A stretch of DNA of 36,357 bases, from the UHGV virus genome UHGV-1353415. One strand, written 5' to 3'. This document shows positions 9,064 to 35,267 of this stretch, piece by piece. Position numbers and translations under genes: made by a program. The stretch comes from a virus. The stretch's first letter is position 1; every line of letters begins with the position of its first letter. Under the pieces are notes generated by a model that ran no database searches, had not been told where the DNA came from, and saw nothing but the letters and a program-made list of their open reading frames with translations.

Positions 9064-9365
9064 TGACTATTCAGGAAATTCCGCTGACAGCGGACAACCA
9101 GCAGTTCAGCATCGTCCTGGGTGGTGTCACTTGGCAGATTAGCATCATATGGCGCGATCCTTACTGGATTATGGACCTGCAGAACGACAGAGGGGAGCCG
9201 GTAATCTCCGGTATTCCTCTCGTCACTGGCGCTGATCTGCTGGCGCAGTACGCCTGTATGGGGCTTGGTTTTAAGCTGGTGGTGGTCTGCGATGACAACA
9301 CACAGGATTATCCCTCGAAAACTGATCTGGGTGGCCGCAGTCATTTACTGGTATCAACGGAGTAA
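9063..9365 (+). CDS. tail/baseplate protein (hypothetical)
   Basis: 100-aa ORF overlapping the upstream stop (ATGA). Confidence 0.4.
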   Translation: MTIQEIPLTADNQQFSIVLGGVTWQISIIWRDPYWIMDLQNDRGEPVISGIPLVTGADLLAQYACMGLGFKLVVVCDDNTQDYPSKTDLGGRSHLLVSTE

Positions 9366-9367
9366 GC

Positions 9368-10432: not shown

Positions 10433-10764
10433 TGAAACGGTTATGTTTGGCGTTAGTTATGATGGTTACTGCTCCGGCGATGGCTGCAATTCAGTGCGGC
10501 AACTACACGATGACCGGTGACGGAATGACTGTTATTAACGGTGAAACTGTCACATCACAGAAGATAAAATTTCTGGGAAAAGATGGTGACTATTCAAACA
10601 TAAAAATGGACATGGGCCTGATGCCTTCCCGTGATGGTAACAATTACGGCTTTGAGTTTGTGAAACGTAACGGAAAAGCTTTCCTGAATGTCCAACTGCT
10701 GCAGAACAGCATGGATGCGCCGAAAATCATCGGCTCCTTCCCGTGTAAAAAGGTTGATGGTTAA
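10432..10764 (+). CDS. small secreted protein with N-terminal signal peptide (accessory)
   Basis: ATG overlaps the hub stop (TAATG); MKRLCLALVMMVTAPAMA then AIQC looks like a Sec signal peptide with AXA site; about 110 aa. Confidence 0.5.
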   Translation: MKRLCLALVMMVTAPAMAAIQCGNYTMTGDGMTVINGETVTSQKIKFLGKDGDYSNIKMDMGLMPSRDGNNYGFEFVKRNGKAFLNVQLLQNSMDAPKIIGSFPCKKVDG

Positions 10765-10932
10765 CCAAAAGTTACATTTCTGCATAGTGTTGAGTTTGTT
10801 CACATTCACTAAATAATGATTTTTTATCGCTTGCTAGGTGGTTGCATGATCACTAAACTTTGCGAACTTTTAGCGCTCAGCTAACTTTGAATAAGTGGTG
10901 TATAGTCGTTTAAAACGACAGAGGGATTGGGT
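10765..10932 (+). promoter_or_regulatory. AT-rich intergenic region with TATAGT -10-like element (10901..10906) and 15-bp perfect palindrome GTCGTTTAAAACGAC (10905..10919); putative autoregulated promoter/operator
   Basis: Palindrome and -10-like hexamer read directly; only non-coding gap over 100 bp inside the tail gene block; -35 element not confidently placed. Confidence 0.35.
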
Positions 10933-11505
10933 ATGGCGATTAGCTACGCATTTGCGCTGGCAACAATTACACAACAAATGAATCAGGTTCAGGAAGCTGT
11001 TAACGGTGCTTTCAAACCCCTGATCTCTAATGCTTGTGAACTGCCACAACGATTAGATGCTGAAGAGGTATTTCGTCGTTGTACCGCGATTGCTGCACGC
11101 GCTCAAGAAATCGAAAATACCGCGAAGGAAGGCATGTCTCATCTCGAAGCTTTTCGAAATGGGAGAATCATTGTTGATGAGCTTCCGGAAGAGTTTTTAT
11201 CCCATCTCGAAGGTCTTGCCAAGGCATGCCGAAATGCTAAAGGACATTTAGTGGATATGTTCTCTGAAGCGGAAAGGTCCCCTATGTGGCAAGGCCATCT
11301 GCAAATGTTGCGCCCATTAAAACGCAAATATGTTCGTGCGTTGACCGCCGTCGAGAACACTGCAACTCAGTTGGCCGCTGAAGTTAGGCAATCGCAGCCT
11401 TTCCAGGCTGAACTCTTGTCAGATAATGTTACCCGTGAAGAGGCTATTGAACTGATCTCAACATCGCATAAGATGCTGGGAGCCAACGCCCCTAAATGGA
11501 TGTGA
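10933..11505 (+). CDS. hypothetical protein, putative antitoxin/partner of the downstream YafO-like gene
   Basis: ATG at 10933 with SD GAGGGA 6 nt upstream (track start 10927 is TTG); about 190 aa, no recognised motif; stop 1 nt before the next gene's ATG. Confidence 0.55.
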   Translation: MAISYAFALATITQQMNQVQEAVNGAFKPLISNACELPQRLDAEEVFRRCTAIAARAQEIENTAKEGMSHLEAFRNGRIIVDELPEEFLSHLEGLAKACRNAKGHLVDMFSEAERSPMWQGHLQMLRPLKRKYVRALTAVENTATQLAAEVRQSQPFQAELLSDNVTREEAIELISTSHKMLGANAPKWM

Positions 11506-11506
11506 C

Positions 11507-11923
11507 ATGGCAAAAGTCAGTATCACGGGAGAATTGCGTCATTTAGCTGCAGCACATAAGTATGCTCAAATGCTTGCCGATTATATTTCAAAGGGTTCCC
11601 AGTTCTGGTGTTTTGGTTCGTTAGGCGGTTTTGAACGTAACTATGATGCGATGGCTGCCAACATCAGGAAAATTCACTTAAAGCTACCTGGCGATAAACC
11701 CTGGCCTCCAGAAGCATCTCTGAGTGAACGGACATGTGATAATTTTTTGGTATATGCTCAGCATCTTTATATCGATGAACACTATCAGATATTGGCAATC
11801 ATCAGCCCAAACGCTCATCAGCAAGCTGATTCGATGCTTCCCCGGCTGATAAAATTAGCAGAGGAAACCTTCATAGAACTTCCTCCTGATGAACTCGAAA
11901 AATTGAAAACCTACGATTCATAA
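11507..11923 (+). CDS. YafO-family toxin-like protein (putative ribosome-dependent mRNA interferase)
   Basis: 138 aa; blocks IHLKLPGDKPWPPE, SERTCDNFLVYAQ, QILAIISPNAH and LAEETF match the pattern I recall for E. coli YafO (IHLANENNPFPPQ, SRTNDEAHLVYCQ, LLIAILKPEPH, MAEAF). Confidence 0.5.
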   Translation: MAKVSITGELRHLAAAHKYAQMLADYISKGSQFWCFGSLGGFERNYDAMAANIRKIHLKLPGDKPWPPEASLSERTCDNFLVYAQHLYIDEHYQILAIISPNAHQQADSMLPRLIKLAEETFIELPPDELEKLKTYDS

Positions 11924-11924
11924 A

Positions 11925-11948
11925 CCCGCCACCCGGCGGGTTTTTTGC
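11925..11948 (+). terminator. Rho-independent terminator after the two-gene cassette
   Basis: CCCGCC-ACCC-GGCGGG hairpin followed by TTTTTT. Confidence 0.6.
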
Positions 11949-11965
11949 TTTCTGGAGCCTACTAA

Positions 11966-12721
11966 ATGGCAGTATCTGACCAGACCCGCAGCGGCGACCT
12001 TGCCGAAACATTCAAATCTGAACGGGAAACAACAAAGAACCAGATCCGTGTCGCCTTGCCTGGCATTGTTCAGTCATTCGATCCCGACGCGGTGACGGCG
12101 GTTGTGCAGCCAGCTATCCGTTCGGTTGAAAAGGATAACGACGGTAACCGCATTACCAAAAATTACCCGTTGCTGGTGGATGTGCCAGTGGTATTTCCGC
12201 GCGGTGGAGGCTGTACGTTGACTTTTCCGGTTAAAGCCGGGGATGAATGCCTGGTGATTTTCGCCGACCGCTGCATCGATTTCTGGTGGCAGAACGGCGG
12301 GGTGCAGGAGCCTGTCGACGACCGGGTGCATGATTTATCGGATGCTTTCTGTATCGTCGGGCCGCAGTCTCAGGCGCAGAAAATAAGCGGAATAAGCACC
12401 AGTGGCGCGCAGCTGCGTACTGATGATGGCGCTGCGTTTGTGGAAGTGGCCGCAGGCCATAATATCACGGTTAAAACTCCCGGCGCGTTGACGGCGACAG
12501 CAGAAGGAGGAACCACGATCACATCACCCACCATCACGCTAAACGGCAACGTGACAATAAACGGGAATCTCTCTCAGGGGATGGGCGAAAGCGGCGGCAC
12601 CGCGACGATGCTTGGCCCTGTCACGGTGACTAACGATGTAAAAGCTGGTGGTAAGAGCCTGATGACGCACACGCACGGCGGAGTACAGACCGGCGGCGGT
12701 AACACAGGAGCGCCTAACTGA
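11966..12721 (+). CDS. baseplate central spike protein (gpV/gp45-like)
   Basis: 251 aa with Gly/Thr-rich C-terminus and HTHGGVQTGGGNT-type motif; RBS CTGGAGCC..AAATGG. Confidence 0.5.
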   Translation: MAVSDQTRSGDLAETFKSERETTKNQIRVALPGIVQSFDPDAVTAVVQPAIRSVEKDNDGNRITKNYPLLVDVPVVFPRGGGCTLTFPVKAGDECLVIFADRCIDFWWQNGGVQEPVDDRVHDLSDAFCIVGPQSQAQKISGISTSGAQLRTDDGAAFVEVAAGHNITVKTPGALTATAEGGTTITSPTITLNGNVTINGNLSQGMGESGGTATMLGPVTVTNDVKAGGKSLMTHTHGGVQTGGGNTGAPN

Positions 12722-13074
12722 TGCGATACAGACGTGAAGACGCCGATGGCGATTATACCTTTGGCAGCGGTGATGACACCTGGCTGATTAACTCACCGGA
12801 GGCCGTGGCGCAGGCGGTAAAAACGCGATTCGAATTGTGGTATGGGCAATGGTTTCTCGATACCACCGAAGGGACTCCGTGGATCCAGTCCGTACTCGGT
12901 AAGCAGAAGCCGGAAACCTACAACCTGGCGATCCGTAAGCGCATCCTCGAAACGCGGGGCGTTAAATCAATCCTCTCTTTCAATACGACGGTGGATACCA
13001 CGACCCGACGTGTCATGTTTTCCGCTGAAATCGACACTCTTTATGGAATAACGACTGTTACATCGGAGGCGTAA
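12721..13074 (+). CDS. baseplate protein (gp25/W-like position)
   Basis: 117-aa ORF with ATGA overlap, between spike and J-like genes. Confidence 0.4.
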   Translation: MRYRREDADGDYTFGSGDDTWLINSPEAVAQAVKTRFELWYGQWFLDTTEGTPWIQSVLGKQKPETYNLAIRKRILETRGVKSILSFNTTVDTTTRRVMFSAEIDTLYGITTVTSEA

Positions 13075-14273
13075 TGGCTCTGAACCTTGATTCTCTTGGT
13101 TTATCTGCAAAGGTAACCGCAGAGGGGATCAGTGCGCCTGATTATCAGACGATACTCAGCACCCTGATTAGCTATTTTCAGCAGATTTATGGCAGTGATG
13201 CCTACCTCGAACCGGACAGCAAAGACGGCCAGATGGTGGCTTTGATGGCGCTGGCGATTCATGATGCCAATAATATGGCGATAACTGTCTACAACTGTTT
13301 TTCACCGGCAACCGGCTATGGGGCTGCACTGACCAGCAACGTGAAAATAAATGGTATTTCACGTAAAGGCGCGACGAACTCTACGGTTGATTTGCTTCTT
13401 ACAGGAACTGCCGGAACAACCATCATTAATGGCAGCGTGAAAGACAGTAATAATGTGATATGGCGTTTGCCTGCTTCAGTGGTGGTCGGCGTGGATGGTA
13501 CAGTGATGGCGACCGCAAAATGTTCCGTCAGTGGTGCAGTGGCGGCGCTGGCTGGAACTATCACTGAAATTAATACGCCAACCCGTGGCTGGGTTTCGGT
13601 AACTAATCCTGCTGCGGCTACTGTTGGCTCTCCGGCAGAAACTGATGCTGAGTTACGTATCCGCCAGTCGCAAAGTGTTGCGTTGCCATCAATAACCCCA
13701 TTTGAAGCACTGGATGGTGCTGTTTCTAATGTTACCGGTGTAACCCGCCACAAACTCTATGAAAACGATACTGGTTCGGAGGACGGTAACGGGTTACCGC
13801 CACACTCTGTTGCTGTAATTGTGGATGGCGGTGATGTGACGGATATTGCTCAGGCTATCAGAGGGAATAAAGGCCAGGGGACAGCCACTCACGGTACAAC
13901 ATCCGTTACGGTTCCGGATAAATACGGCAATCCCCATGTAATCAAATTCTCGCGTTCCAGTGATGTACCTGTTTATGCCCGGATTAAATTAAAAGTTTTT
14001 ACGGGTTATACCTCACAGATAGGGCAGCAGATCCAGCAGGCTATTTCCGACTATATCAATAGTCTGACGATTGGTGATTCGGTCCTTTTGAGTCGCATTT
14101 ACTCACCGGCGAATCTTGGCGTGGTGAGTGGCGGGAATGCACGCTATTACGATATTCAGGAACTGACGATTGGGAAATCCCCGGGGGCTTTGTCGTCATC
14201 AAACATTGATATCAGATACAACGAATCTGCGTCCTGTACCCCGGAAAATATCGTTATAACGGTGGAGTCATGA
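13074..14273 (+). CDS. baseplate J-like protein
   Basis: 399-aa ORF in conserved position after the spike and small baseplate protein. Confidence 0.5.
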   Translation: MALNLDSLGLSAKVTAEGISAPDYQTILSTLISYFQQIYGSDAYLEPDSKDGQMVALMALAIHDANNMAITVYNCFSPATGYGAALTSNVKINGISRKGATNSTVDLLLTGTAGTTIINGSVKDSNNVIWRLPASVVVGVDGTVMATAKCSVSGAVAALAGTITEINTPTRGWVSVTNPAAATVGSPAETDAELRIRQSQSVALPSITPFEALDGAVSNVTGVTRHKLYENDTGSEDGNGLPPHSVAVIVDGGDVTDIAQAIRGNKGQGTATHGTTSVTVPDKYGNPHVIKFSRSSDVPVYARIKLKVFTGYTSQIGQQIQQAISDYINSLTIGDSVLLSRIYSPANLGVVSGGNARYYDIQELTIGKSPGALSSSNIDIRYNESASCTPENIVITVES

Positions 14274-14950
14274 GCAAATACACCGAACTAATCACGAACT
14301 ACCACGCCACCAAACCTAAATTTCTTGCGCATGTTGATCTGATGACCCGGCCGCTTATTGATGTTGCGGCTGCCACCAGAGGGCTGATTACTGCATTTGA
14401 TATTGACTCTGCGGTTGGTGTGCAACTTGACATTCTTGGATTGTGGATCGGACGTAGCCGTGTTGTCAGCCAGCCTATCTCAGGTGTCTATTTCAGCTGG
14501 GATACCGACGGGCTTGGATATGATCAGGGTGTATGGCAGGGGCCATACGATCCTGATTCCGGATACATGTACCTCAGCGATGAAACTTATCGTGTCATCC
14601 TTAAAGCGAAGATTGCGATTAATAACTGGGATGGACGGAATGATTCGCTTCCGGCAATTCTTGACGCGGCGACAGCAGGATCCGGACTGCGAATGCAGAT
14701 AGTCGATAACCAGGACATGACGATATCGGTCTGGGTCTTTCCTGATACTGATATTTCAGATGTATCGCGTGAGTTAATTGCTGCAATTAAACAGGGATAT
14801 CTCACAGTAAAAGCCGCCGGTGTGTGGGCGGGTGGCATTGAAACACCTTCGGTGGAAACCCCATCGGAAGGTTCAAAATTTTTTGGTTTTGATATGGATA
14901 ACGAATTCATCAGTGGTTTTGATGTAGGGGCATGGGGAGTATTACTCTGA
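14270..14950 (+). CDS. baseplate/tail protein (gpI / Mu gp48-like position)
   Basis: 226-aa ORF, 4-nt overlap with the J-like gene. Confidence 0.45.
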
Positions 14951-15645
14951 TGGCGAAAAATGACTTTAAAGCGTTTGCAACGGATCGAAATGCCAATGTT
15001 ATGTCGCAGGAGGAATGGGAAGCGTTGCCTGCGCTTTTATCCGGATTTACAGCAGGGAAAGCCTCCAGTGCGCAAGTCAATAAGGTTATTCGGCAGGCCA
15101 GCTTTATTGCTGCAGCTCTGGCCCAGTTTGTAAGTGATAAAACGCAACGGGATGTGCTTGATAATGGTGATCTGCCCGGTTTTGTTGAATTGCTGGGATC
15201 GGGGTTTGCTGTTGAATACCTGAGTCGCAAAAATCCATTTGGCGATATCAAATCGGATGGCACTGTGCAAACGGCTCTCGAAAACCTTGGTTTGGGAGAA
15301 GCGGCTAAAAGAAATGTAGGGACCGGCACCAATCAAATTCCTGACATGTCTAGCTTTACAAGTGGAAATGGCTGGTGTCGTTACCCTGATGGAACTATCT
15401 TTCAACGTGGTGTTTCAGTGGCAGGAGCGATTGGATCTCCCACTTTTATAAATTTCCCCATTGCATTTACCGACTACTCAACCGTGCAAATTGTTGTGTC
15501 GTATGATAATGCGGGATCTGCAGTAAATTCAATTCCTTCTTTTGCGGCTACACCCGTTAGTACCGGTCTTGGTTTTAGCTTAATGGGTTCCCAGCCATCA
15601 GGTAGCAATACAACTTATTGTCGATGGATAGCTATAGGTAAATAA
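14950..15645 (+). CDS. tail fibre protein
   Basis: ATG at 14950 overlapping the upstream stop; N-terminal region typical of enterobacterial phage tail fibres (..[16 protein letters not shown]..), followed by an assembly chaperone gene. Confidence 0.5.
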
Positions 15646-15646
15646 A

Positions 15647-16078
15647 ATGAAAAAATATGTGTACAGTGCAATAAATAACGCTTTCTATCCAACATCAATG
15701 AAAGAAGATTATATTTCTGGAAATTGCTGGCCTACTGATGGTGTTGAATGTGACGAAGATATATTTACAGAATATACAAAGGAACCGCCAACTGGGAAGG
15801 TCCGCATCGCTGGAAAAGATGGTTATCCGGAATGGGGTGAACTACCAGCACTAACTCATGATGAGCAGGTAGCAGCAGCAGAACGCAAGAGGCAGATTCT
15901 TATTGAACAGGCCAACTCTAACATGAACAGCAAGCAATGGCCTGGAAAAGCGGCTATGGGTCGGCTCCGTAATGATGAAAAATATCAGTATGGTGCATGG
16001 CTGGATTATCTTGATGAATTGGAAGCTATTAATGTTACCAAGGCTCCCGACATAGAATGGCCTATTAAGCCAGCTTAA
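15647..16078 (+). CDS. tail fibre assembly protein (Tfa)
   Basis: 143 aa starting MKKYVYSAINNAFYP.., the characteristic Tfa N-terminus; directly after the fibre gene. Confidence 0.6.
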   Translation: MKKYVYSAINNAFYPTSMKEDYISGNCWPTDGVECDEDIFTEYTKEPPTGKVRIAGKDGYPEWGELPALTHDEQVAAAERKRQILIEQANSNMNSKQWPGKAAMGRLRNDEKYQYGAWLDYLDELEAINVTKAPDIEWPIKPA

Positions 16079-16082
16079 CTTC

Positions 16083-16114
16083 ATTGGTCACTCAGCATTT
16101 GCTGAGTGACCAAT
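16083..16114 (+). terminator. 15-bp perfect inverted repeat hairpin terminating the tail operon
   Basis: ATTGGTCACTCAGCA tt TGCTGAGTGACCAAT followed by ATTTTA; lies between the convergent Tfa and acyltransferase genes. Confidence 0.55.
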
Positions 16115-16474
16115 ATTTTAACTAATTGTTTTTAAACTGTTTTTTTCATTGCGGGTTTTTCAATGTATAAGTAAGTTAAGCAACTTATCATTGCACAAAT
16201 TGATAAAGATATTGCTGCAAACGCAGTATAGTTTAATGAGCTTGAAATGAAATTAAAGGTCATTACCATGCTTAAGCCATGCATCAAATAAATGCTGTAA
16301 CTTACAGAACCCGCCACCTTGAAGAACTTGGTGTTTATAATTTGAAAAGCTTTGGAGCCAGTACACGCACTTAAAAAAAACAAAAATAGCGGAATCACTA
16401 TGTAAACATTGTAAATGTTAAAGTCCTGCCAGTATGCAACAGCAATAAGCGATAAAAGGGGTAATGACTCCAAC

Positions 16475-16978
16475 TTACTGATAGTGTTTTATGTTCAGAT
16501 AATGCCCGATGACCTTGTCATGCAGCTCCACCGATTTTGAGAACGACAGTGACTTCCGTCCCAGCCTTGCCAGATGTTGTCTCAGATTCAGGTTATGCCG
16601 CTCAATTCGCTGAGTGTAACGCTTGCTGATTACGTGCAGCTTTCCCTTCAGGCGGGATTCATACAGCGGCCAGCCATCCGTCATCCATACCACGACCTCA
16701 AAGGCCGACAGCAGGCTTAGAAGACGCTCCAGTGTGGCCAGAGTGCGTTCACCGAATACGTGCGCAACAACCGTCTTCCGGAGCCTGTCATACGCGTAAA
16801 ACAGCCAGCGCTGGCGCGATTTAGCCCCGACGTATCCCCACTGTTCGTCCATTTCCGCGCAGACGATGACGTCACTGCCCGGCTGTATGCGCGAGGTTAC
16901 CGACTGCGGCCTGAGTTTTTTAAATGGCGGAAAATCGTGTTGAGGCCAACGCCCATAATGCGGGCGGTTGCCCGGCAT
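16475..16978 (-). CDS. insB: IS1 InsB (transposase frame, expressed as InsAB' by frameshift)
   Basis: 167-aa product ..[44 protein letters not shown].. matches IS1 InsB. Confidence 0.85.
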
Positions 16979-17172
16979 CCAACGCCATTCATGGCCATAT
17001 CAATGATTTTCTGGTGCGTACCGGGTTGAGAAGCGGTGTAAGTGAACTGCAGTTGCCATGTTTTACGGCAGTGAGAGCAGAGATAGCGCTGATGTCCGGC
17101 GGTGCTTTTGCCGTTACGCACCACCCCGTCAGTAGCTGAACAGGAGGGACAGCTGATAGAAACAGAAGCCAC
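16897..17172 (-). CDS. insA: IS1 InsA
   Basis: 91-aa product [43 protein letters not shown].. matches IS1 InsA. Confidence 0.9.
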
Positions 17173-18327
17173 TGGAGCACCTCAAAAACACCATCATACA
17201 CTAAATCAGTAAGTTGGCAGCATCACCATAAAAGGTACACAATTGTCATCATTACGCTATTGGCTTGTTTGATAGCGTTGTTCTTTAGGTAACCAGAAGC
17301 TAGCGCTGCAACAAAGCCACCAATAAAGCAAAAGAGAAGAGTGGCAAACATTTCACTGATAAGCCCTTGGCGGTAAGCAATTAATACCGAGAAAAGCATA
17401 ATTATTACCGAAAAACATGCATCTCTTATTGATTTTACGAACATAGAGATATATGGTAAAATTATATAAAAACCCCACTCATATGCAAGAGTCCAGATAA
17501 CCCCGCCAACGATTAAAGATCCATGAATAGAAGGTGTAAGGCCATTAGGGTCAATTATACCAAACGTAAAATATCGGCCAACTTCAACAATAATGTTGTG
17601 AATCCCAATGCTATCGTTGGGTCGAATTAATTCAGAAACACAAACAACGCAAAGCACCATGAATGCATACATTGGAATTAGTCTCTTAACTCGCGCCGAC
17701 AAAAATATTGCAGCATTGTTTATTGGTTTATTTATTATTTTTCTAAAGAAGAGAAACCCTGTAATCATAAAGAATATCATGACTGGAATGGAGCCAAAAT
17801 ATGCAATAGCCAATAAACTATTGTTGCTTGACTTCGCCGTAAATCCATCATTCAAAAATATACTCCATTTATCATGATAAAGATAATTGAACATATATAC
17901 TGAATGGTGAAGGGCGACCATGACAGCCGCCAACCCCCTGAGGCAAGATAAATTGTCATCACCTCGCAACCCAAAAGAAGAGTCTGCAACTAATTCATTC
18001 TTAAACCTTCCGGCAATCCAAAAAACAAAAAATACAGGGATGGAAGATAAAATAAAGATAATAAACGTCAAGTCAAACATAAAAACGCTCACGACCATTA
18101 GGGATTATATAATATCCTGATGTTAAATCATTTAAAGCTATACTTCATTACATTTATATAAAAACGGTAATGGAAAAGATGGTATGAAAATTTCCGCTTT
18201 AAAAACAATTGGATATAATTCTTTCTGTTCTCGTGTTAATCCTATCAAAAAAATGGGATGGGTGCATCATCAACGATGCGCGTGCAGGTTAGTTTGATGA
18301 CTACCCGCTGAAGTGAAAATTGTGTTG

Positions 18328-18621
18328 TGTACCAAATTGCGTACCAAACTAAAATCACAAATCATGAAACCCTTGTTCATGGCGGTTCTCAGGGGTGTTG
18401 CGCGTAATCGTGAAAGAGGAAGGTAGGTTGTTTATCTGTGCCTGTCATTGTCTAGCATTGTCCACTGTAGTTAATTAACTGTCTGTTATAACTCGAAAAA
18501 CAACCCTTTTTTAACCTGAGTATGTCTACGAACGTCAAATATAGTTGTTTACTGTGCGCTGTTGTCCATGTGATATTGTGTACCAGATGTGTACCAAACC
18601 ATTATTTTTGAGCGTACCAAA
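18328..18621 (+). repeat. attP-like region with five GTACCA(A/G)A direct repeats (putative integrase arm-type sites)
   Basis: Copies at about 18329, 18341, 18580, 18591 and 18614, flanking roughly 220 bp of non-coding AT-rich DNA immediately upstream of int. Confidence 0.4.
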
Positions 18622-18629
18622 TATTATTT

Positions 18630-19808
18630 ATGGCTATAAGCGACACAAAACTGCGTACTATTTATGGTAAACCATATTCGGGCCCACAAGAAGTGGCTGA
18701 TGCCGATGGCCTCAGCGTACGAATTTCACCGAAGGGGGTCATCCAGTTCCAGTACCGCTATCGCTGGCATGGCAAGCCTAATCGACTTGGGCTTGGTCGA
18801 TACCCATCCCTGTCTTTGAAGGATGCCAGACAGATCACTGCTGACTTGCGAAAGCTCTATTTCTCAGGAACGGATCCACGCACTTATTTTGAAGAGAAGG
18901 TGGAGAACTCCATGACGGTCGCCCAGTGTCTCGACTACTGGTTCGACAACTACGTCTCTACAACTCTCAGAGAAAAGACCCAGGCACTTTACCGATCAAC
19001 GGTTATGAAGCGCATGTATGACGCCTTCCCTAATCGTCCGGCATCTTCTATCACGGTTAAGCAATGGGTTGACCTGCTTACCGAAGAAGAAAGAGATAAT
19101 CCACGCCGAGCAAGGCAGGTGCTAAGTCAACTAAGATCAGCAATAAGTTGGTGCATGCGGCGTCAGTTGATAGATAGTTGCGCAATTATGAGCATCCAAC
19201 CAAGGGACTTCGGCTCCCGCGCTGAGGTAGGGGAGCGGGTACTGTCGTATCACGAACTGGCTAAGATTTGGCTTGCTATTGAAAGAAGCCGTGCGTCTAC
19301 GTCAAATAAGCTCCTTCATCAGATGCTTATGCTGTGGGGGTCGAGGCTCTCAGAGCTTAGGCTGGCAACAAAGACAGAATTTGACCTGCTGGACAACGTA
19401 TGGACCGTACCGAAAGAGCATAGCAAGATGGGTAATGTTATCCGCCGTCCAATCTTCGAACAAATTAAGCCTTTTCTCGAAAAGGCCATGACAACGTACA
19501 ATGATGTTCTTTTCCCTGGAGAAGACATAAACAAACCGATCAGCATCGCTGCAGCCAACCGATTCGTAAATAGAATAAGGGGAGGGATGGACATAGGTTA
19601 CTGGCGAACACATGATTTCAGAAGAACGCTTGTTACACGGCTGTCCGAGATGAATGTCGAGCCCCATGTTACTGAGCGAATGCTCGGTCATGAACTTGGC
19701 GGGATAATGTCCGTGTACAATAAACACGACTGGATAGAGGCTCAGCGCAAAGCGTATGAGCTTCACGCTGATAAATTGTTCTGGCACATCAGGAACATTT
19801 CTGGTTAA
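18630..19808 (+). CDS. int: tyrosine integrase (P4-type, with N-terminal arm-binding domain)
   Basis: 392 aa; catalytic-type motifs ..HDFRRT.. and ..LGHELGGIMSVYNKHD.. near the C-terminus; N-terminal ..LSVRISPKGVIQFQYRYRW.. arm-binding fold signature. Confidence 0.85.
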   Translation: MAISDTKLRTIYGKPYSGPQEVADADGLSVRISPKGVIQFQYRYRWHGKPNRLGLGRYPSLSLKDARQITADLRKLYFSGTDPRTYFEEKVENSMTVAQCLDYWFDNYVSTTLREKTQALYRSTVMKRMYDAFPNRPASSITVKQWVDLLTEEERDNPRRARQVLSQLRSAISWCMRRQLIDSCAIMSIQPRDFGSRAEVGERVLSYHELAKIWLAIERSRASTSNKLLHQMLMLWGSRLSELRLATKTEFDLLDNVWTVPKEHSKMGNVIRRPIFEQIKPFLEKAMTTYNDVLFPGEDINKPISIAAANRFVNRIRGGMDIGYWRTHDFRRTLVTRLSEMNVEPHVTERMLGHELGGIMSVYNKHDWIEAQRKAYELHADKLFWHIRNISG

Positions 19809-19980
19809 CGCCACCGTTAAGAATCCACCCTTCAACAGCTTCACGAAGGTATGATTTGGGGTGGGTTCTGACTGGCTTCGGAAATCCGTGCCGTTTGGTA
19901 TAGTTCCAGATTGTCTGACGTGATGAAACACCGAGCTTGTTCATCACTTCTTTCTCAGGAATCAGGCTGGTATCGGTCAT
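19789..19980 (-). CDS. AlpA-family excisionase / transcriptional regulator
   Basis: 63 aa; ..LGVSSRQTIWNYTKRHGFPKPVR.. winged-HTH pattern; convergent with int, 3' ends overlap by 20 nt. Confidence 0.6.
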   Translation of the reverse strand: MTDTSLIPEKEVMNKLGVSSRQTIWNYTKRHGFPKPVRTHPKSYLREAVEGWILNGGVNQKCS

Positions 19981-20057
19981 CTTAATTCTCCAGGCAAAAA
20001 GAAACCGCCATATAGCGGCTCTATCAGATATGTACAGGCCTCATCGAGTGTGAGGCG

Positions 20058-20402
20058 TTAGTCCTTGCGTAGCTCGCTGATTCTTCTGTAAGTCTCTGGT
20101 GCTTTGTTTCCGTGTATCTTCATTTCAGACTTCAACAGAGCAACGAGAGAATCCCATTCGTTGAGGATGCCTTTGAATGCCGGAACGCGCTTTGCAACCT
20201 TGTCGAATGAATCTCTGATTTCTGGAATCTGCTCAACAAGTGCAACGCATCGTCTGAAATCGGCTGCGTCATGTGGAGCACCGAAGCCATGACCATAGAT
20301 ATTCTTTTTCAGTCCACATGCGATTGAGGCAAGAGTTGCGCTACTGATGCCAACATCGCCAGTCGATTGCCATTTCAAAACTTTCATAGCCAAATCTGAC
20401 AT
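20058..20402 (-). CDS. hypothetical protein
   Basis: 114-aa ORF with SD GGAG 8 nt upstream; directly downstream of two hairpin terminators. Confidence 0.5.
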   Translation of the reverse strand: MSDLAMKVLKWQSTGDVGISSATLASIACGLKKNIYGHGFGAPHDAADFRRCVALVEQIPEIRDSFDKVAKRVPAFKGILNEWDSLVALLKSEMKIHGNKAPETYRRISELRKD

Positions 20403-20410
20403 TTCTTGTC

Positions 20411-20470
20411 TCCATAAAACAAAACTCGCCGTAGCGAGTTCAGATAAAAGAAAACCCGCACTCGGCGGGT
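20411..20470 (-). terminator. two tandem Rho-independent terminators (minus strand)
   Basis: Minus-strand hairpins ACCCGCCGAGTGCGGGT + TTTTCTTTT and ACTCGCTACGGCGAGT + TTTTGTTTT. Confidence 0.5.
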
Positions 20471-20750
20471 TCGCATTCGTTCAAATTGCGTTTACTTCTT
20501 GGCGTTCTGTTCATCCATATCGATATACCATGGGTTGCTTCCCTTGGGCATGTTTAACGACTGCTCGCGATAGTATCTGATGCGCTCCATGAAATACTCG
20601 CGTGAGTGCTCAGGTTGCTCTCATGATACCTGCTCAGTGATAACAGGCATGTTAAGGCGCTCTCTGTACTCCATGCCTGATGCTGCAAGGTCAACGTTTA
20701 CCTTGTTCTGTTTTTCTTTCGATTTCTCGGCGATGTTATGCCTGACATTG

Positions 20751-20993
20751 TCAACCCGCCTCCTTCTGAACATAACGGTTATAAATCAGTCCCTGAGGGC
20801 CATAAGGAAGCGGGATGTGCAACTCCTCTGGTTCAGAAACTATCCATTCCCCGGCCATCTCCGCTGGAGAGGTAATGATAAGTTGTTTGCTAATAAAAGG
20901 ACCACTCCTCTCAACAACAAGCTTACCATCTTCATTAATAAAAGCTTGGATGTCAGGTGTGCTTCCACACTTGGTGATGCAGCGTTTGAACAT
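20751..20993 (-). CDS. hypothetical 80-aa protein (accessory gene with own promoter)
   Basis: ORF MFKRCITKCG..; extended -10 promoter upstream and terminators downstream on the same strand. Confidence 0.5.
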   Translation of the reverse strand: MFKRCITKCGSTPDIQAFINEDGKLVVERSGPFISKQLIITSPAEMAGEWIVSEPEELHIPLPYGPQGLIYNRYVQKEAG

Positions 20994-21000
20994 TTTGTGT

Positions 21001-21008
21001 CCCCCCCC
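21001..21008 (-). repeat. G8 homopolymer (C8 on + strand) in the 5' leader / SD region
   Basis: Minus-strand ATGGGGGGGGACACAAA ATG; tract sits where the ribosome-binding site should be. Confidence 0.7.
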
Positions 21009-21025
21009 ATTTTATGTACGGGGTA

Positions 21026-21060
21026 ATTATAACACATTGAAATATAGTAATATTTGACGT
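21026..21060 (-). promoter_or_regulatory. extended -10 promoter (TGTTATAAT on minus strand) for the 80-aa gene
   Basis: Minus-strand TGnTATAAT at 21026..21034, about 33 nt upstream of the ATG; -35 weak. Confidence 0.4.
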
Positions 21061-21121
21061 AGATTTCTTTTGATCTATAAGCGGTTTTTTAATGCTTTTA
21101 AGTTATAAATACTTGTTTTCA

Positions 21122-21793
21122 TCACCCATCTTGCTGCGGTGCTACTATTGAAAAGTACTCACACCCTTTAGCCCAAATAGTTTTGATAGTTGTCCAACTG
21201 ACTGGAACCTTGATTTCGATTCTCCCGCTGCCGTCACAAGTTTCGCAATCATCATCACCAAAGCATTCCGGGCAGCTTATAAACGTAGTTTCTGAAAATT
21301 CACCGGATAGCACACCCTTAGCGCCGTTCTCAGCGGTTAGTTTCTTCGGCACTATAACCCAACCATCCGGAGTTACCGGAGAGTTGCCGGGTTCTTTAAT
21401 GTGCAAACGAGGCTCACCATCTTTTGGTTCAGGCCACTGACGTTCCATGTTGATCTTCAATTTATTTTCCATAGCAGCGGTAATTTCAGCATCACTGATA
21501 CCGGCACGGCGCTGTGCATCCCACAACAGGAACTGCATATCAGCCCACTCGCTGAGATCGTCAGGTTCGGCTGCGGCTTCCAGAGCCTCTTTTGAGAGGT
21601 GTTTCAGTGGACCAATGGGGCCAACGCAGCCAAATGTGGAGTCAGACCATTTGGCATGCTCGTGGCGAATCTGTTCGCGTTCCAGTGATGCCAGTGCAAT
21701 TCGTGCCAGTTCCATTTGTTCGCCACGAGTAAGCCCGTTTTCAAGCGGATTTTTAATGAATAATTCGATACGTTCTTTGGTAATAGTGGTCAT
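21122..21793 (-). CDS. MazG-like nucleotide pyrophosphohydrolase-domain protein with C-terminal Cys-rich (zinc-ribbon-like) region
   Basis: 223 aa; N-terminal ..EWADMQFLLWDAQRRAGISDAEITAAMENKL.. MazG-like pattern; C-terminal CPECFGDDDCETCDGSG. Confidence 0.45.
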   Translation of the reverse strand: MTTITKERIELFIKNPLENGLTRGEQMELARIALASLEREQIRHEHAKWSDSTFGCVGPIGPLKHLSKEALEAAAEPDDLSEWADMQFLLWDAQRRAGISDAEITAAMENKLKINMERQWPEPKDGEPRLHIKEPGNSPVTPDGWVIVPKKLTAENGAKGVLSGEFSETTFISCPECFGDDDCETCDGSGRIEIKVPVSWTTIKTIWAKGCEYFSIVAPQQDG

Positions 21794-21795
21794 AG

Positions 21796-21987
21796 CTATT
21801 TCACCTTAATCTCAACATTTCGCAGCTTTAGCTCTACTGGCAGGTCTGACTTTCCTGTTAATGCTAATGCGAGATTTTCTGGGGTAATGAGAGCAGTTAT
21901 TGCTTTCCCCATTGCCAGACGAATAATTATTCGTATTTCGCGATCGTCACATGCTCCTGGTCGAACGATTGATATTTGTCCGTCCAT
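21796..21987 (-). CDS. hypothetical protein
   Basis: 63-aa ORF tightly packed between neighbours. Confidence 0.35.
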   Translation of the reverse strand: MDGQISIVRPGACDDREIRIIIRLAMGKAITALITPENLALALTGKSDLPVELKLRNVEIKVK

Positions 21988-21988
21988 C

Positions 21989-22549
21989 TCACTCTCCTTT
22001 GATGCGAATGCCAGCGGAGCGGATTGCAGCGATGACTTCAGAAACTTTGTATGCCATTACCGTTTGGTAATCCTCGTGGAAATCTGTTCGATGAAGCATG
22101 CTGCTACGTTCCGGGAGCAGTATTTCCCGCGCTTCCAGTTCTGCAATGCGCTTCTCTGCGGCTTCCAGCTCAACACGCAGCTTCCCTACCGTTAGCGCAA
22201 TATCCTCGTTCTCCTGGTCGCGGCGTTTGATGTATTGCTGGTTTCTTTCCCGTTCATCCAGAAGCGCCAGCACGGTAGCTGGACTGGCTGCGGCGATGAA
22301 TTCAGCGTTGGCCTGCTGTTCCATTTGGAAATCTTCATCGAAACCGCTTTCTGGATGCGCTCCTTCAATTCTGCAAATGGGAAGATATCCAACAACTTCA
22401 CGATGAATTAGTGCATCACCAGCATCAAATCTCTCCTCTCCATATTCGAGCGACCACACACCACACGTTGCTTTTTCTGCCTTAGCACGCAGTGCCTGAT
22501 AGTCAATCTTGCTCACTGGTTGCCTCCTTTGCGAAGCTGCTCCGCACAA
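21989..22549 (-). CDS. Ea22/Ead-like protein (start uncertain)
   Basis: Coiled-coil-rich ORF; one of three adjacent paralogue-like genes. Confidence 0.45.
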   Translation of the reverse strand: MCGAASQRRQPVSKIDYQALRAKAEKATCGVWSLEYGEERFDAGDALIHREVVGYLPICRIEGAHPESGFDEDFQMEQQANAEFIAAASPATVLALLDERERNQQYIKRRDQENEDIALTVGKLRVELEAAEKRIAELEAREILLPERSSMLHRTDFHEDYQTVMAYKVSEVIAAIRSAGIRIKGE

Positions 22550-23157
22550 TGCAGCAGGGCGTCCGTCGCTTCTTTCACCGTAACGATGTCGCCATCGTCC
22601 AGCCCGGCAACCGTCGCGTCCTTAACGAACACCGAGCAAAGGTCATTAAACGCCTGCGCACGTACTTCAGCCAGGAGAGCGTCGGTGACCGGAGTTTCAG
22701 GAATCCGTCTCCTCATCCGTTCTATTGCATGATTGAACCCGAAATCTTCAGCAAGAGATACGTCATCCATATTGTCATTGTCGTCCTCAATATCCAGTGG
22801 TTCTGGAATTGCAGACTTTATTACCGCATTCTCCGCTGCCAGCGCCGCACACTTGGCCTCAAGAGCGGCAACCACTTCCTGATGGTCTTTGTACTTAACG
22901 TATGAGCCGGAGATGTCATCACCTTCGGTGTTTAGCCATGCGTCATTGCAATTCACTGCGTAGGTTCTGATGCTCATGCTGATGCTCTCCCGCCCCTGAC
23001 AGACGCCAGGCCAGTCAATAAAGTATCCGCAATGCCTACCCTCAGACGTGCGCGCAGGATAAATGCCGTTATGACCCGGCAAAATATATGCTACCCATTC
23101 ATCTTGCGTTGCCTGTTTCGCCGCCTCGCGCAGTTCTTTATAGTTAATTTCGCTCAC
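22513..23157 (-). CDS. Ea22/Ead-like protein
   Basis: 214 aa; C-terminus ..[25 protein letters not shown] shared with the next paralogue. Confidence 0.5.
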   Translation of the reverse strand: MSEINYKELREAAKQATQDEWVAYILPGHNGIYPARTSEGRHCGYFIDWPGVCQGRESISMSIRTYAVNCNDAWLNTEGDDISGSYVKYKDHQEVVAALEAKCAALAAENAVIKSAIPEPLDIEDDNDNMDDVSLAEDFGFNHAIERMRRRIPETPVTDALLAEVRAQAFNDLCSVFVKDATVAGLDDGDIVTVKEATDALLHCAEQLRKGGNQ

Positions 23158-23648
23158 TGGTTGCCTCCTTTACGAAGCTGGGCAGCAATACTTACGCATA
23201 TCTCTGCGCCTCTAATCAGCCCCGGAACGTTCTTGTTTGGCCCAACTTCACCATCAAAAAAATCAATCATCGCGTTGCGAGCCATATCCACGCCCTGCGC
23301 TCGAACTTCAGCTAGGAAAGCGTCGGTGGCTGGGGTTTCAGTAACATCATCTTCCCATTCGCTAAACTCCTCACGACAAAAGTCATTAAATTCCTTCTCA
23401 GATTGCTTAAGTGAGGTATTTTCAGCAGCCATCTTCGCGCATTTAGCCTCAAGGTTATCAATCGTGATTCCAGCAGAACGACACTCCCGCAACGCCGTTT
23501 CCAGTTTTGATTCAAGTTCACCGAACTTACGGACAAGATATTCAGCGTTTGTTTCGTTAACCTTTAAATCACTTGGGATGCATTTACCTTTCAGAAATCC
23601 ATCCATCTCAATTAGTGTCATTTGTTTCATTTCTTCCCACTCCGCCAC
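23154..23648 (-). CDS. Ea22/Ead-like protein
   Basis: 164 aa; C-terminus ..[25 protein letters not shown]. Confidence 0.5.
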
Positions 23649-23807
23649 ATTGCATTCAGATATTTGTTTTGATTTACTGATGGAAAAGAATTTCTCTTAA
23701 GCAATTCCTCTCTTGATGGCATTGGCTTTACGCGTTGGCGAATAATCATTTCTGCCGGAAGAATGCCGGGATTGTATGCAAGTCCTCTCATGGTAAATTC
23801 CTCTTTG

Positions 23808-24134
23808 TTAATTTATTCGTATGCCTGCTCTTTCTTCATCGAGTTTTTTTAGCTTGTATCGCATAGCTCTTACTGAATAAATTGAGCGGCAGGTTGCAAT
23901 TGCTATTTCTTCTGCGGAGAACTTACCGAAAAGTGATACTTCGGCTCTTGTCCATCGTCTTCCACGAAGTCGGCTAACAATGTCAGCGCCAATCCTTGTT
24001 GCTTTCGCCATTACTGCTTTTTCAGTCCTTTCCAGTTTTTCAGCGATAACTTCAACTGGCATTGTCGCCGCTACTTCGCGCAAGAAATCGACTTCCCATT
24101 TCTCCCATGGAGTCTTTTTCATAGGCGATACCAT
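23808..24134 (-). CDS. hypothetical protein
   Basis: 108-aa ORF in the early-left operon. Confidence 0.4.
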
Positions 24135-26062: not shown

Positions 26063-26127
26063 AGGATGCTCCTTCTGTTTGATTGCATAACGAAAACGCC
26101 TCGAGTGAAGCGTTATTGGTATGCATA

Positions 26128-34004: not shown

Positions 34005-34647
34005 TGGCAGCAAATACCGAAATATTTTGGTAGTTGGCGATCTGCACGGATGCTACACGAACCTGATGAAAAAACTGGAGACGATAGGATTCGACACCAA
34101 AAAAGACCTGCTTATCTCAGTGGGCGATTTGGTTGATCGCGGTACAGAGAACGTCGAATGCCTGGAATTAATCACATTCCCCTGGTTCAGAGCTGTACGT
34201 GGAAACCATGAGCAAATGATGATTGATGGCTTATCAGAGCGTGGAAACGTTAATCACTGGCTGCTTAATGGCGGTGGCTGGTTCTTTAATCTCGATTACG
34301 ACAAAGAAATTCTGGCTAAAGCTCTTGCCCATAAAGCAGATGAACTTCCGTTAATCATCGAACTGGTGAGCAAAGATAAAAAATATGTCATTTGCCACGC
34401 CGATTATCCTTGTGACGAATACGAGTTTGGAAAGCCAGTTGATCATCAGCAGGCAATCTGGAACCGCGAACGAATCAGCAACTCACAAGACGGGATCGTG
34501 AAAGAAATCAAAGGCGCGGACACGTTCATCTTTGGTCATACGCCAGCAGTGAAACCACTCAAGTTTGCCAACCAGATGTATATCGATACCGGCGCAGTGT
34601 TCTGCGGAAACCTCACATTGATTCAGGTACAGGGAGAAGGCGCATGA
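33982..34647 (+). CDS. serine/threonine protein phosphatase (lambda PPase-like, NinI)
   Basis: [23 protein letters not shown]...GDLVDRG...GNHE calcineurin-like metallophosphatase motifs; start at internal ATG 33982. Confidence 0.85.
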
Positions 34648-35267
34648 GACTCGAAAGCGTAGCTAAATTTCATTCGCCAAAAAGCCCGATGATGAGCGAC
34701 TCACCACGGGCCACGGCTTCTGACTCTCTTTCCGGTACTGATGTGATGGCTGCTATGGGGATGGCGCAATCACAAGCCGGATTCGGTATGACTGCATTCT
34801 GCGGTAAGCACGAACTCAGCCAGAACGACAAACAAAAGGCTATCAACTATCTGATGCAATTTGCACACAAGGTATCGGGGAAATACCGTGGCGTTGCAAA
34901 GCTTGAAGGAAATACTAAGGCAAAGGTATTGCAAGTGCTCGCAACATTCGCTTATGCGGATTATTGCCGTAGTGCCGCGACGCCGGGCGCAAGATGCAGA
35001 GATTGCCACGGTACAGGTCGTGCGGTTGATATAGCAAAAACAGAGCAGTGGGGGAGAGTTGTTGAGAAAGAGTGCGGAAGATGCAAAGGCGTCGGCTATT
35101 CAAGAATGCCAGCAAGCGCCGCATATCGCGCTGTAACGATGCTAATCCCAAACCTTACCCAACCCACCTGGTCACGCACTGTTAAGCCGCTGTATGACGC
35201 TCTGGTGGTGCAATGCCACAAGGAAGAGTCAATCGCAGACAATATTTTGAATGCGGTCACACGTTAG
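34644..35267 (+). CDS. Q: late-gene antiterminator Q
   Basis: 207 aa [27 protein letters not shown].. with [14 protein letters not shown] zinc motif; closely matches my recollection of lambda Q. Confidence 0.85.

What the first reader, a model, noticed from the sequence alone, without database searches (positions are those of the whole stretch)
16132..18098. Serotype-conversion-type acyltransferase gene inactivated by IS1
A polytopic acyltransferase-3 gene sits in the accessory position between tail fibre/Tfa and the integrase, where lambdoid phages carry O-antigen modification genes. It is split by a complete IS1 (16461..17227) with flanking direct repeat ATAAAAGG. The conversion function is therefore probably lost, and IS1 marks the element as having resided in an IS1-rich host. 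With an 8-bp duplication my frame bookkeeping does not restore a single frame, so a 9-bp duplication or an additional lesion is possible.
Basis: partly seen in the sequence, partly recalled or inferred. Interest (0 to 1): 0.55.

Follow-up and report, generated by a model that had tools for sequence, protein, structure and literature searches.

The report
IS1-disrupted phage acyltransferase gene
A temperate E. coli phage carries a membrane acyltransferase gene of the kind phages use to modify the host's surface sugars, and a complete IS1 jumping gene has recently cut it in two; this is a clean but ordinary case of insertional inactivation.

Summary
A complete 768-bp IS1 lies at 16460..17227, not 16461. 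It is flanked by an 8-bp target duplication, ATAAAAGG, at 16452-16459 and 17228-17235. It splits a minus-strand AT3 (PF01757) acyltransferase gene spanning 18098 to 16132.

The restored DNA matches an uninterrupted gene in two E. coli chromosomes (WP_181664913.1). Their empty sites carry one copy of ATAAAAGG. Apart from the IS1, the window is the sbcB-site prophage of E. coli 2016C04-116: no substitutions and one homopolymer indel in about 35.6 kb, joined at attP instead of attL/attR. The insertion is therefore very recent.

The gene sits between Tfa and attP-int, where phage Sf101 carries oacB. It keeps the OacB-type motifs but is only 25% identical to OacB. The cut falls inside a transmembrane helix and removes 106 residues, including the YSxYLxHG motif, so loss of function is very likely. 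O-antigen as the substrate is inferred, not shown. The "IS1-rich host" inference carries no information, because IS1 is in 4971 of 5426 E. coli genomes. This is a new member of a known kind, of low interest.

The parts
16132..16459 (-). 3' fragment of the acyltransferase gene: native residues 291-396 plus the stop, with the left copy of the target duplication at 16452-16459. It holds the YSIYLMHG motif (aa 342-349) and the invariant residues G338, Y342, S343, Y345 and E388.
16460..17227 (-). Complete IS1, 768 bp, transcribed in the same direction as the acyltransferase. IRL is at the 17227 end and IRR at the 16460 end. insA is at 16897..17172, the insB' frame at 16475..16978 and the A6C frameshift site at 16915..16924. 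It is 96.4% identical to K-12 IS1A.
   Evidence: PMC12428005
16452..16459 (.). Target-site duplication, left copy (ATAAAAGG)
17228..17235 (.). Target-site duplication, right copy (ATAAAAGG)
17228..18098 (-). 5' fragment of the acyltransferase gene: native residues 1-290. It carries R54-X10-H65, FFMITGFLFFRK (109-120), R136xxR139 and WTLAYEWGFY (202-211). As it stands, the ORF runs 5 nt into IS1 and ends ...LLW* at 17223.
16140..16146 (-). Homopolymer, A7 on the sense strand at codon 393. It is one base shorter than in the closest intact allele and shifts only the C-terminal tail.
16083..16114 (.). Perfect 14-bp-stem hairpin between the convergent Tfa and acyltransferase genes. It is a likely bidirectional terminator.
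   Evidence: consensus scan only
15647..16078 (+). Tail fibre assembly gene (Caudo_TAP), the upstream neighbour, convergent with the acyltransferase
18403..18415 (+). attP core CGTAATCGTGAAA (phage 2851 / Sf101 / HK544 type, sbcB site). Homology to the integrated prophage's dacD-side junction ends here.
   Evidence: PMC4159516
18630..19808 (+). Tyrosine integrase (2851 type)

Best explanation
A temperate lambdoid myovirus of E. coli integrates at sbcB. It carries a low-GC accessory gene for an AT3-only membrane acyltransferase between its tail-fibre assembly gene and attP-int. By analogy with Oac and OacB, the intact enzyme most likely moves an acetyl group from cytoplasmic acetyl-CoA across the inner membrane onto a surface polysaccharide of the lysogen. 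The O-antigen is the most probable target. That would alter the receptor or serotype seen by phages and antibodies.

In this copy an IS1 transposed into codon 290/291 and made the usual 8-bp target duplication. The insertion lies inside a transmembrane helix. The gene now encodes a 290-residue N-terminal stub plus one foreign residue. The last 106 residues, about 3.5 helices with conserved motifs, are detached, so the modifying activity is lost.

The event is very recent. It does not touch phage structural or lysogeny genes.

**Shown:** the IS1 anatomy, the duplication, frame restoration, identity to intact alleles, family membership and gene position.

**Inferred:** the substrate (O-antigen), acetyl as the acyl group, and loss of activity.

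**Confidence:** the 0.6 given is for the whole statement, O-antigen target included. That an IS1 insertion has split and inactivated an AT3 acyltransferase gene, taken alone, I put at about 0.95.
For: **IS1 and the duplication.** The element is 768 bp with canonical ends. It has insA and insB' and a 232-aa InsAB' after a -1 shift at A6C. The flanks are 8-bp repeats. IS1 is 768 bp and makes 8- or 9-bp duplications (PMC12428005).

**One gene, restored on excision.**
- In-silico excision of 776 bp gives one 396-aa ORF.
- The restored DNA is 99.9% and 99.6% identical to an uninterrupted annotated gene in NZ_CP131685.1 and NZ_CP063515.1.
- The window's two flanks overlap by exactly the 8 bp on four empty-site loci.

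**Recent event.** Outside the IS1, the window matches the NZ_CP131685.1 prophage with 0 mismatches and 1 homopolymer gap over about 35.6 kb.

**Family.**
- PF01757: E = 7.8e-23, 81.5 bits against a cut-off of 31, covering model positions 3-324 of 326.
- PHROG 3333 "O-acetyltransferase": E = 1.8e-44.

**Motifs.**
- R54-X10-H65, the FFxITG motif, R136xxR139, WxLxYEWxFY and YSxYLxHG are present. They match the AT3/OacB motifs described in PMC7448272 and PMC4159516.
- Six of the seven residues found critical in OacB (PMC8952252) are conserved.

**Position.**
- Sf101 has the same layout around its proven O-antigen acetylase OacB: tail gene, opposite-strand acyltransferase, attP, 2851-type int (PMC4159516).
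- Two of the three distant homologues examined (32% and 28% identity) also sit in prophages. One lies next to a large unannotated ORF and lysis genes, the other directly after Tfa.

**Foreign origin.** GC is about 34-37%, against about 47-50% in the flanks.

**Damage.**
- The AF2 model of the intact homologue has pLDDT 90.4. The cut falls inside helix 276-292 and removes four or five later helices.
- 5 of 18 invariant and 5 of 23 near-invariant family columns lie in the detached part.
Against: - No biochemical or serological data exist for this protein or any member of its cluster.
- It is only 25% identical to OacB, and at most 35% identical to anything outside its own 91-member cluster. Substrate and acyl group are therefore open.
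- No NCBIfam model names it.
- AT3 proteins acylate many glycans besides O-antigen (PMC9558356).
- One OacB-critical position (S146) aligns to Gly here, although the alignment is loose in that region.
- Loss of function is inferred from the truncation, not measured.
Confidence: 0.6

Rival explanations
1. The gene is inactivated as described, but the intact enzyme does not convert serotype. It acylates another envelope glycan (LPS core, ECA, colanic acid or capsule, peptidoglycan), or serves mainly in superinfection exclusion through a non-O-antigen receptor.
For: AT3 proteins have many substrates (PMC9558356). Identity to the characterised OacB is only 25%, and no NCBIfam equivalog hits. One distant homologue, in Erwinia, sits outside any recognisable prophage.
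Against: - It occupies the same slot and the same att/int module as Sf101 oacB (PMC4159516).
- All four OacB-type motifs are present, and 6 of 7 critical residues are conserved.
- Its close linkage to the tail-fibre and Tfa genes recurs in its own cluster and in one distant homologue that lies directly after Tfa. This is typical of receptor-modifying accessory genes.
- It is AT3-only, like Oac, OacB, OacC and OacD.
Confidence: 0.25
2. The IS1 insertion did not happen in nature. It arose during laboratory propagation, induction or cloning of the phage, or it is an assembly chimera.
For: Apart from the IS1, the window is nucleotide-identical to a sequenced prophage. This particular junction was not found in the viral, genome or metagenome contig collections, and the truncated product is not in the 15-billion-protein collection. 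The window is joined at attP, so it may derive from induced or propagated phage.
Against: The exact 8-bp duplication with a full-length IS1 is the signature of real transposition, not misassembly. This IS1 copy is only 96.4% identical to K-12 IS1A, while 100% identical copies are common in natural isolates. That argues against a hop from the main IS1 copies of a K-12 laboratory host. Whether the event was natural or in culture cannot be decided from sequence.
Confidence: 0.1
3. The gene still works despite the insertion. Either the 290-residue N-terminal part, which holds the R-X10-H, FFxITG and RxxR motifs, is sufficient, or the two fragments are both expressed and reassemble in the membrane.
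For: Most residues shown to be critical by mutagenesis in OacB and OafA lie in the N-terminal half (PMC8952252, PMC7448272). A mechanical ORF with a TTG start inside the IS1 end covers the C-terminal fragment.
Against: The cut lies inside a transmembrane helix of a compact, confidently modelled helical bundle. The detached part holds 5 invariant family residues and the conserved YSxYLxHG motif. In OafA, a conserved Glu just after TMH10 is needed for more than 95% of activity (PMC7448272), and the invariant E388 here may be its counterpart (inference). No ribosome-binding or promoter evidence supports expression of the 3' fragment.
Confidence: 0.03

Closest known systems
OacB of Shigella flexneri phage Sf101 (O-antigen 3/4-O- and 6-O-acetyltransferase)
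   Same: It is an AT3-only polytopic protein of similar size (390 against 396 aa). It lies on the strand opposite the tail genes, immediately before attP and a 2851-type integrase that targets sbcB. It shares the motifs DGxRGxLAxxVxxHH (approximately), FFxITG(Y/F)LFxxK, WxLxYEWxFY and YSxYLxHG. Six of the seven experimentally critical residues are conserved (PMC4159516, PMC8952252).
   Different: Identity is only 25%, so it is not an orthologue. The host phage is a myovirus with an SEN34 / vB_EcoM-606R2-like tail, not a P22/Sf6-like podovirus. The substrate is unknown, and here the gene is broken by IS1.
Oac of phage Sf6 and other AT3-only phage O-antigen acetylases (PHROG 3333)
   Same: It belongs to the same Pfam family and matches the same PHROG profile (E = 1.8e-44). 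It has the same role as a lysogenic-conversion accessory gene next to att/int.
   Different: tblastn against the phage collection (E <= 1e-5) did not return Sf6. Specificity is uncharacterised.
IS1 insertions in temperate phage genomes (P1, SfIV, RCS47 and others)
   Same: A full-length IS1 is carried inside a phage genome (P1, SfIV, RCS47, phi456, GER2). It has the standard 768-bp element and an 8-bp duplication.
   Different: Here the IS1 sits inside the conversion gene itself. This particular insertion was not found in any collection searched.
AT3-SGNH fused acetyltransferases OafA, OafB/GtrC (Salmonella)
   Same: The AT3 domain shares R/K-X10-H in TMH1, an FFxISG-like motif and RxxR (PMC7448272).
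   Different: There is no SGNH domain and no 11th helix or linker. The protein is AT3-only.

Membership tests
IS1 (IS1 family insertion sequence) | Length about 768 bp with imperfect terminal inverted repeats of about 23 bp starting GGT(G/A)ATG | tested here: met
   16460..17227 is 768 bp. The ends are GGTAATGACTCCAACTTACTGAT and GGTGATGCTGCCAACTTACTGAT (reverse complement). It is 96.4% identical to K-12 IS1A over 768 bp with no gaps.
IS1 (IS1 family insertion sequence) | insA plus insB' joined by a -1 frameshift at an A6C motif, giving a 232-aa InsAB' transposase | tested here: met
   Pfam Zn_ribbon_InsA and HTH_Tnp_IS1 hit the 91-aa ORF, and DDE_Tnp_IS1 hits the 167-aa ORF. TTTAAAAAAC is at 16915-16924, and a simulated -1 shift gives 232 aa. 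The reference description is in PMC12428005.
IS1 (IS1 family insertion sequence) | 8- or 9-bp direct target duplication | tested here: met
   ATAAAAGG flanks the element on both sides. A single copy is present at the empty site in L001, L002, L005 and L006.
Acyltransferase-3 (AT3, PF01757) | Full-length match to the Pfam model above the gathering score | tested here: met
   The restored protein scores E = 7.8e-23 and 81.5 bits against a cut-off of 31. Residues 49-379 align to model positions 3-324 of 326.
Acyltransferase-3 (AT3, PF01757) | R/K-X10-H in TMH1, an FFxI(S/T)G motif and RxxR | tested here: met
   R54 and H65, F109-F110-M-I-T-G, and R136 and R139 are all invariant or nearly invariant in a 49-sequence alignment. 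The motifs are as defined in PMC7448272.
Acyltransferase-3 (AT3, PF01757) | Polytopic bundle of about 10 transmembrane helices | tested here: met
   The AF2 model of the 99%-identical intact homologue P0001 has pLDDT 90.4 and pTM 0.91 and is all-helical, with about 10-11 long helices. No solved AT3 structure was recovered for comparison.
Phage serotype-converting O-antigen O-acetyltransferases (Oac/OacB type) | AT3-only protein encoded by a temperate phage next to attP/int | tested here: met
   PF01757 is the only domain. The gene lies 305 bp from the attP core at 18403-18415 and 532 bp from int. Sf101 has the same layout.
Phage serotype-converting O-antigen O-acetyltransferases (Oac/OacB type) | OacB motif set and critical residues | tested here: met
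   Three of the four motifs match exactly by pattern, and the first matches approximately. Six of the seven critical residues are conserved (R54, H65, W78, F117, R136, R139). S146 aligns to G165.
Phage serotype-converting O-antigen O-acetyltransferases (Oac/OacB type) | Close sequence relationship (orthology) to a characterised member | tested here: not met
   The best characterised relative is Sf101 OacB, at 25% identity and E = 1e-13. The nearest protein outside its own cluster is 35% identical and unnamed.
Phage serotype-converting O-antigen O-acetyltransferases (Oac/OacB type) | Demonstrated acetylation of an O-antigen sugar and a change of serotype | not testable with these tools
   This needs NMR or MS of LPS, or serology, on lysogens or on strains expressing the intact allele.

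The most novel reading that the evidence does not exclude
The intact allele (WP_181664913.1 cluster) encodes a so far uncharacterised E. coli O-antigen-modifying acyltransferase with a new specificity. It is rare, found in 2 of 5426 complete genomes. Lysogens recurrently switch it off by different routes: IS1 here, a T8-to-T7 slip that gives a 316-aa allele elsewhere, and a variable A6-A9 tract at the 3' end. In that reading the gene behaves as a contingency locus whose loss is selected in some hosts.
Probability: 0.12. Interest if true: 0.4.

Novelty: new member of a known kind. Interest (0 to 1): 0.2.

Why it matters
The biological weight is modest. The window documents a very recent IS1 hop that knocks out a lysogenic-conversion gene. 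Intact and disrupted alleles sit on otherwise identical phage backbones, a ready-made isogenic pair for testing what this uncharacterised acyltransferase does to the E. coli surface. It also shows a phage carrying a complete, apparently functional IS1. Neither IS inactivation of O-antigen modification genes nor IS1 in phage genomes is new.

Tried and rejected
- **Source of the window.** I looked for the same IS1 junction or truncated product elsewhere:
  - An exact-product look-up of the 291-aa fragment found nothing.
  - A cluster look-up of the 113-aa ORF found nothing.
  - A 33-nt junction pattern found no matches in viral, genome or metagenome contigs.
  - The empty-site pattern was also absent from viral contigs.
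- **DNA search of the phage collection.** It returned only the IS1 and the att/int segment, never the acyltransferase.
- **Structure comparison.** No PDB sequence relative was found. Foldseek against the PDB gave only meaningless transporter matches (E >= 0.06, TM about 0.2). BFVD gave one unnamed 637-aa viral protein. Neither says anything about function.
- **Recurrent IS hits in other strains.** I considered reading the "partial" cluster members (237, 240, 154, 160 and 247 aa) this way. I rejected it as unproven. They lie at contig ends of fragmented drafts, so the breaks may be assembly breaks.
- **A 9-bp duplication or a second frameshift.** Rejected. The base after the right repeat copy is T, while the base after the left copy is the first G of IS1. 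Removing 776 bp restores the frame, while removing 775, 777 or 768 bp does not.

Full report
**1. What is in the sequence**

Reading 15800-18500 and listing ORFs shows two adjacent minus-strand ORFs with membrane-protein composition, at 17223..18098 (291 aa) and 16132..16473 (113 aa). Between them lie the two classic IS1 reading frames: a 91-aa ORF at 16897..17172 and a 167-aa ORF at 16475..16978, both on the minus strand.

Pfam assigns the IS1 frames without ambiguity. The 91-aa ORF hits Zn_ribbon_InsA and HTH_Tnp_IS1, and the 167-aa ORF hits DDE_Tnp_IS1 at E = 3e-75.

The element's ends are GGTAATGACTCCAACTTACTGAT at 16460 and the complement of GGTGATGCTGCCAACTTACTGAT ending at 17227. IS1 is therefore 16460..17227, exactly 768 bp.

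The slippery TTTAAAAAAC lies at 16915-16924. A simulated -1 shift there yields a 232-aa InsAB', the canonical size (PMC12428005). The copy is 96.4% identical to K-12 IS1A, with 28 differences and no gaps. Copies 100% identical to it are common on E. coli chromosomes and plasmids.

The 8-bp repeat ATAAAAGG flanks the element at 16452-16459 and 17228-17235. IS1 makes duplications of 8 or 9 bp (PMC12428005).

**2. The frame question**

Removing 16460..17235 (IS1 plus one repeat copy, 776 bp) and translating from 18098 gives one open frame of 396 aa, ending at the stop at 16132-16134. Removing 775, 777 or 768 bp does not.

As it stands, the 5' fragment encodes native residues 1-290, then Trp and a stop read from the IS1 end. 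The native 3' part is residues 291-396.

**3. Are the two fragments one gene?**

Yes. The restored DNA (gene plus flanks, 1388 nt) matches an uninterrupted, annotated "acyltransferase family protein" (WP_181664913.1) in two of 5426 complete E. coli genomes. Identity is 99.9% to NZ_CP131685.1 and 99.6% to NZ_CP063515.1.

In a direct BLAST, the window's left and right flanks abut on those loci, and on two further loci from draft data, with an overlap of exactly 8 bp. That overlap is the single ATAAAAGG of the empty site. This is the textbook signature of a real transposition event.

**4. The only other difference**

Against NZ_CP131685.1 the restored region differs by one base in a homopolymer at 16140-16146: T7 against T8 on the plus strand, A7 against A8 in the gene's sense, at codon 393. 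This changes the tail from ...PAMKKNSLKTIS* to ...PAMKKTV*.

It lies after the last conserved residue (E388) and after the end of the Pfam match (residue 379). Members of the gene's own 90% cluster carry tails that correspond to A6, A8 and A9. The tail is evidently free to vary, or prone to sequencing error, and this is not a second disabling lesion.

**5. What the surrounding element is**

- **Left part (1-16078):** myovirus head, tail and baseplate genes. They are 96.8% identical over 70% of the query to the vB_EcoM-606R2 group and about 81% identical to Salmonella phage SEN34. The block ends with Baseplate_J, DUF2612, a gp53-like fibre protein and a Caudo_TAP tail fibre assembly protein.
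- **Right part (18630 onward):** a lambdoid early region that is HK544-, Kapi1- and Stx-phage-like. It starts with a tyrosine integrase and an AlpA-like gene.
- **attP:** the 13-bp core CGTAATCGTGAAA of phage 2851 and Sf101 (PMC4159516) is at 18403-18415. Homology to the dacD-side junction of the E. coli prophages ends exactly there.

The whole window, minus the IS1, is the sbcB-site prophage of E. coli 2016C04-116:

| Window segment | Result against the prophage |
|---|---|
| 18403-36357 | 100% identical over 17,955 bases, no mismatches |
| 1-16459 | a single homopolymer gap, no mismatches |
| 17228-18415 | no mismatches |

The two prophage ends are joined here in the attP (excised or vegetative) order. 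About 6.7 kb (lysis genes, terminase, portal) lies outside the window.

So the IS1 insertion happened after essentially no other divergence. Whether that was in nature or during propagation cannot be decided. The junction was not found in any collection searched.

**6. What the gene encodes**

The restored protein is a full-length AT3 domain: PF01757, E = 7.8e-23, residues 49-379 on model positions 3-324 of 326. There is no SGNH domain. It matches PHROG 3333 "O-acetyltransferase" at E = 1.8e-44. No NCBIfam model hits it.

In the 5.8-billion-protein search, its own cluster (91 members, all E. coli where named) is 99% identical. The next relatives drop to 35%.

An alignment of 49 relatives gives these invariant residues: R54, H65, V106, F109, F110, L116, F117, R136, R139, P142, W202, E207, Y211, G338, Y342, S343, Y345 and E388. 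They cover the R/K-X10-H, FFxI(S/T)G and RxxR features of AT3 enzymes (PMC7448272). They also cover the four motifs listed for Sf101 OacB (PMC4159516).

Six of the seven residues shown to be critical in OacB (PMC8952252) are conserved. Identity to OacB is nevertheless only 25%.

**7. Position as evidence of function**

In Sf101 the order is tail gene, then oacB on the opposite strand, then attP, then a 2851-type int. The attP-int segment there is 95.6% identical to the window's. Sf101 OacB was shown by NMR to acetylate the O-antigen (PMC4159516).

The contexts of relatives point the same way:

- The gene's own cluster keeps it next to the gp53-like fibre and Tfa genes, even in a decayed prophage remnant at dacD.
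- A 32% homologue lies in another E. coli prophage beside an 826-aa unannotated ORF and lysis genes.
- A 28% homologue lies directly after Tfa in a P2-like prophage.
- One Erwinia homologue shows no phage context.

GC content of 34-37%, against 47-50% in the flanks, marks the gene as a foreign accessory gene. A strong hairpin at 16083-16114 separates it from the convergent Tfa gene.

Together these make O-antigen, or at least surface-glycan, acylation the best reading. It is an inference from family and position, not a demonstrated activity.

**8. Consequence of the insertion**

An AlphaFold model of the intact homologue P0001 is confident (pLDDT 90.4, pTM 0.91) and all-helical. P0001 is 99% identical, and its numbering is ours minus 6.

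The insertion point, after residue 290 (284 in P0001), falls inside helix 276-292. Everything after it is detached, including helices 300-314, 318-333, 335-353 and 359-387. That part holds 5 of the 18 invariant and 5 of the 23 near-invariant columns, including YSIYLMHG.

In OafA, a conserved Glu just after TMH10 is needed for more than 95% of activity (PMC7448272). The invariant E388 here may be its counterpart, which is my inference.

Loss of activity is therefore very likely, but it has not been measured. IS1 is oriented like the gene, and downstream lie only the 3' fragment and the hairpin. No effect on tail or integration genes is expected.

**9. The "IS1-rich host" remark**

IS1 was found in 4971 of 5426 complete E. 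coli genomes, with a median of 11 places per genome. Its presence says only that the phage has lived in E. coli or Shigella, which the rest of the sequence already shows.

IS1 inside phage genomes is also well documented, for example in P1, SfIV, RCS47 and others.

**10. Verdict**

The finding is a clean, very recent IS1 knockout of an uncharacterised OacB-like, phage-borne AT3 acyltransferase.

Both the mechanism of inactivation and the class of gene are well known. What is new is only the particular protein family member and the availability of intact and disrupted alleles on identical phage backbones. Interest is low (0.2). It is a new member of a known kind.

Noticed in passing
window 1-36357 (att join at 18403-18415): Apart from the IS1, its duplication and one homopolymer base, the whole window is nucleotide-identical to the sbcB/dacD-site prophage of E. 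coli 2016C04-116 (NZ_CP131685.1). The two prophage ends are joined in the attP (excised or vegetative) order, not the integrated order. About 6.7 kb (lysis genes, terminase, portal) lies outside the window.
   Followed up: yes
window 16373-16380 and 16140-16146: The acyltransferase has two homopolymer tracts whose length varies among natural alleles. A sense-strand T8 at codon 315 becomes an immediate stop at T7, which reproduces the 316-aa cluster member P0125. The sense-strand A-tract at codon 393 occurs as A6, A7, A8 and A9, giving four different C-terminal tails. This may be slipped-strand variation or sequencing error.
   Followed up: partly
window 18327-18621: Five GTGTACCAAA-like repeats (at most 1 mismatch), all on the + strand, are the only matches in the window. 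They flank the attP core, two on the left arm and three on the right. They are probably arm-type integrase binding sites. About 1.7 matches are expected by chance anywhere in the window.
   Followed up: partly
window 10927-11923: Two accessory ORFs sit inside the baseplate module. One is a 138-aa YafO-family toxin-like protein (weak NCBIfam hit, PHROG 1651). The other is an upstream 192-aa partner of unknown function (PHROG 35514). In the otherwise near-identical prophage of E. coli EH01-18-04-A this slot holds a DUF4282 gene instead, so it is a variable cargo position.
   Followed up: partly
window 35541-35696: tRNA-Asn (GTT) and tRNA-Thr (TGT) genes lie just downstream of the Q-like antiterminator gene (34644..35267) and ahead of the lysis genes, as in many lambdoid and Stx-type phages.
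   Followed up: no
window about 20490-20775 and about 22140-22545 (from the annotation of identical DNA in L012): RefSeq annotates a DNA polymerase III theta-like gene with an internal stop and a partial ead/Ea22-like gene in the identical prophage. The early-left region therefore already carries other decayed genes.
   Followed up: no
L005 5238-9255 and L006 215-4232: In another E. coli lineage the same acyltransferase (99% identical) survives intact at the dacD junction in a heavily deleted prophage remnant. There the fibre and Tfa genes abut Nin-region genes. This suggests the accessory gene is kept while the phage decays.
   Followed up: partly
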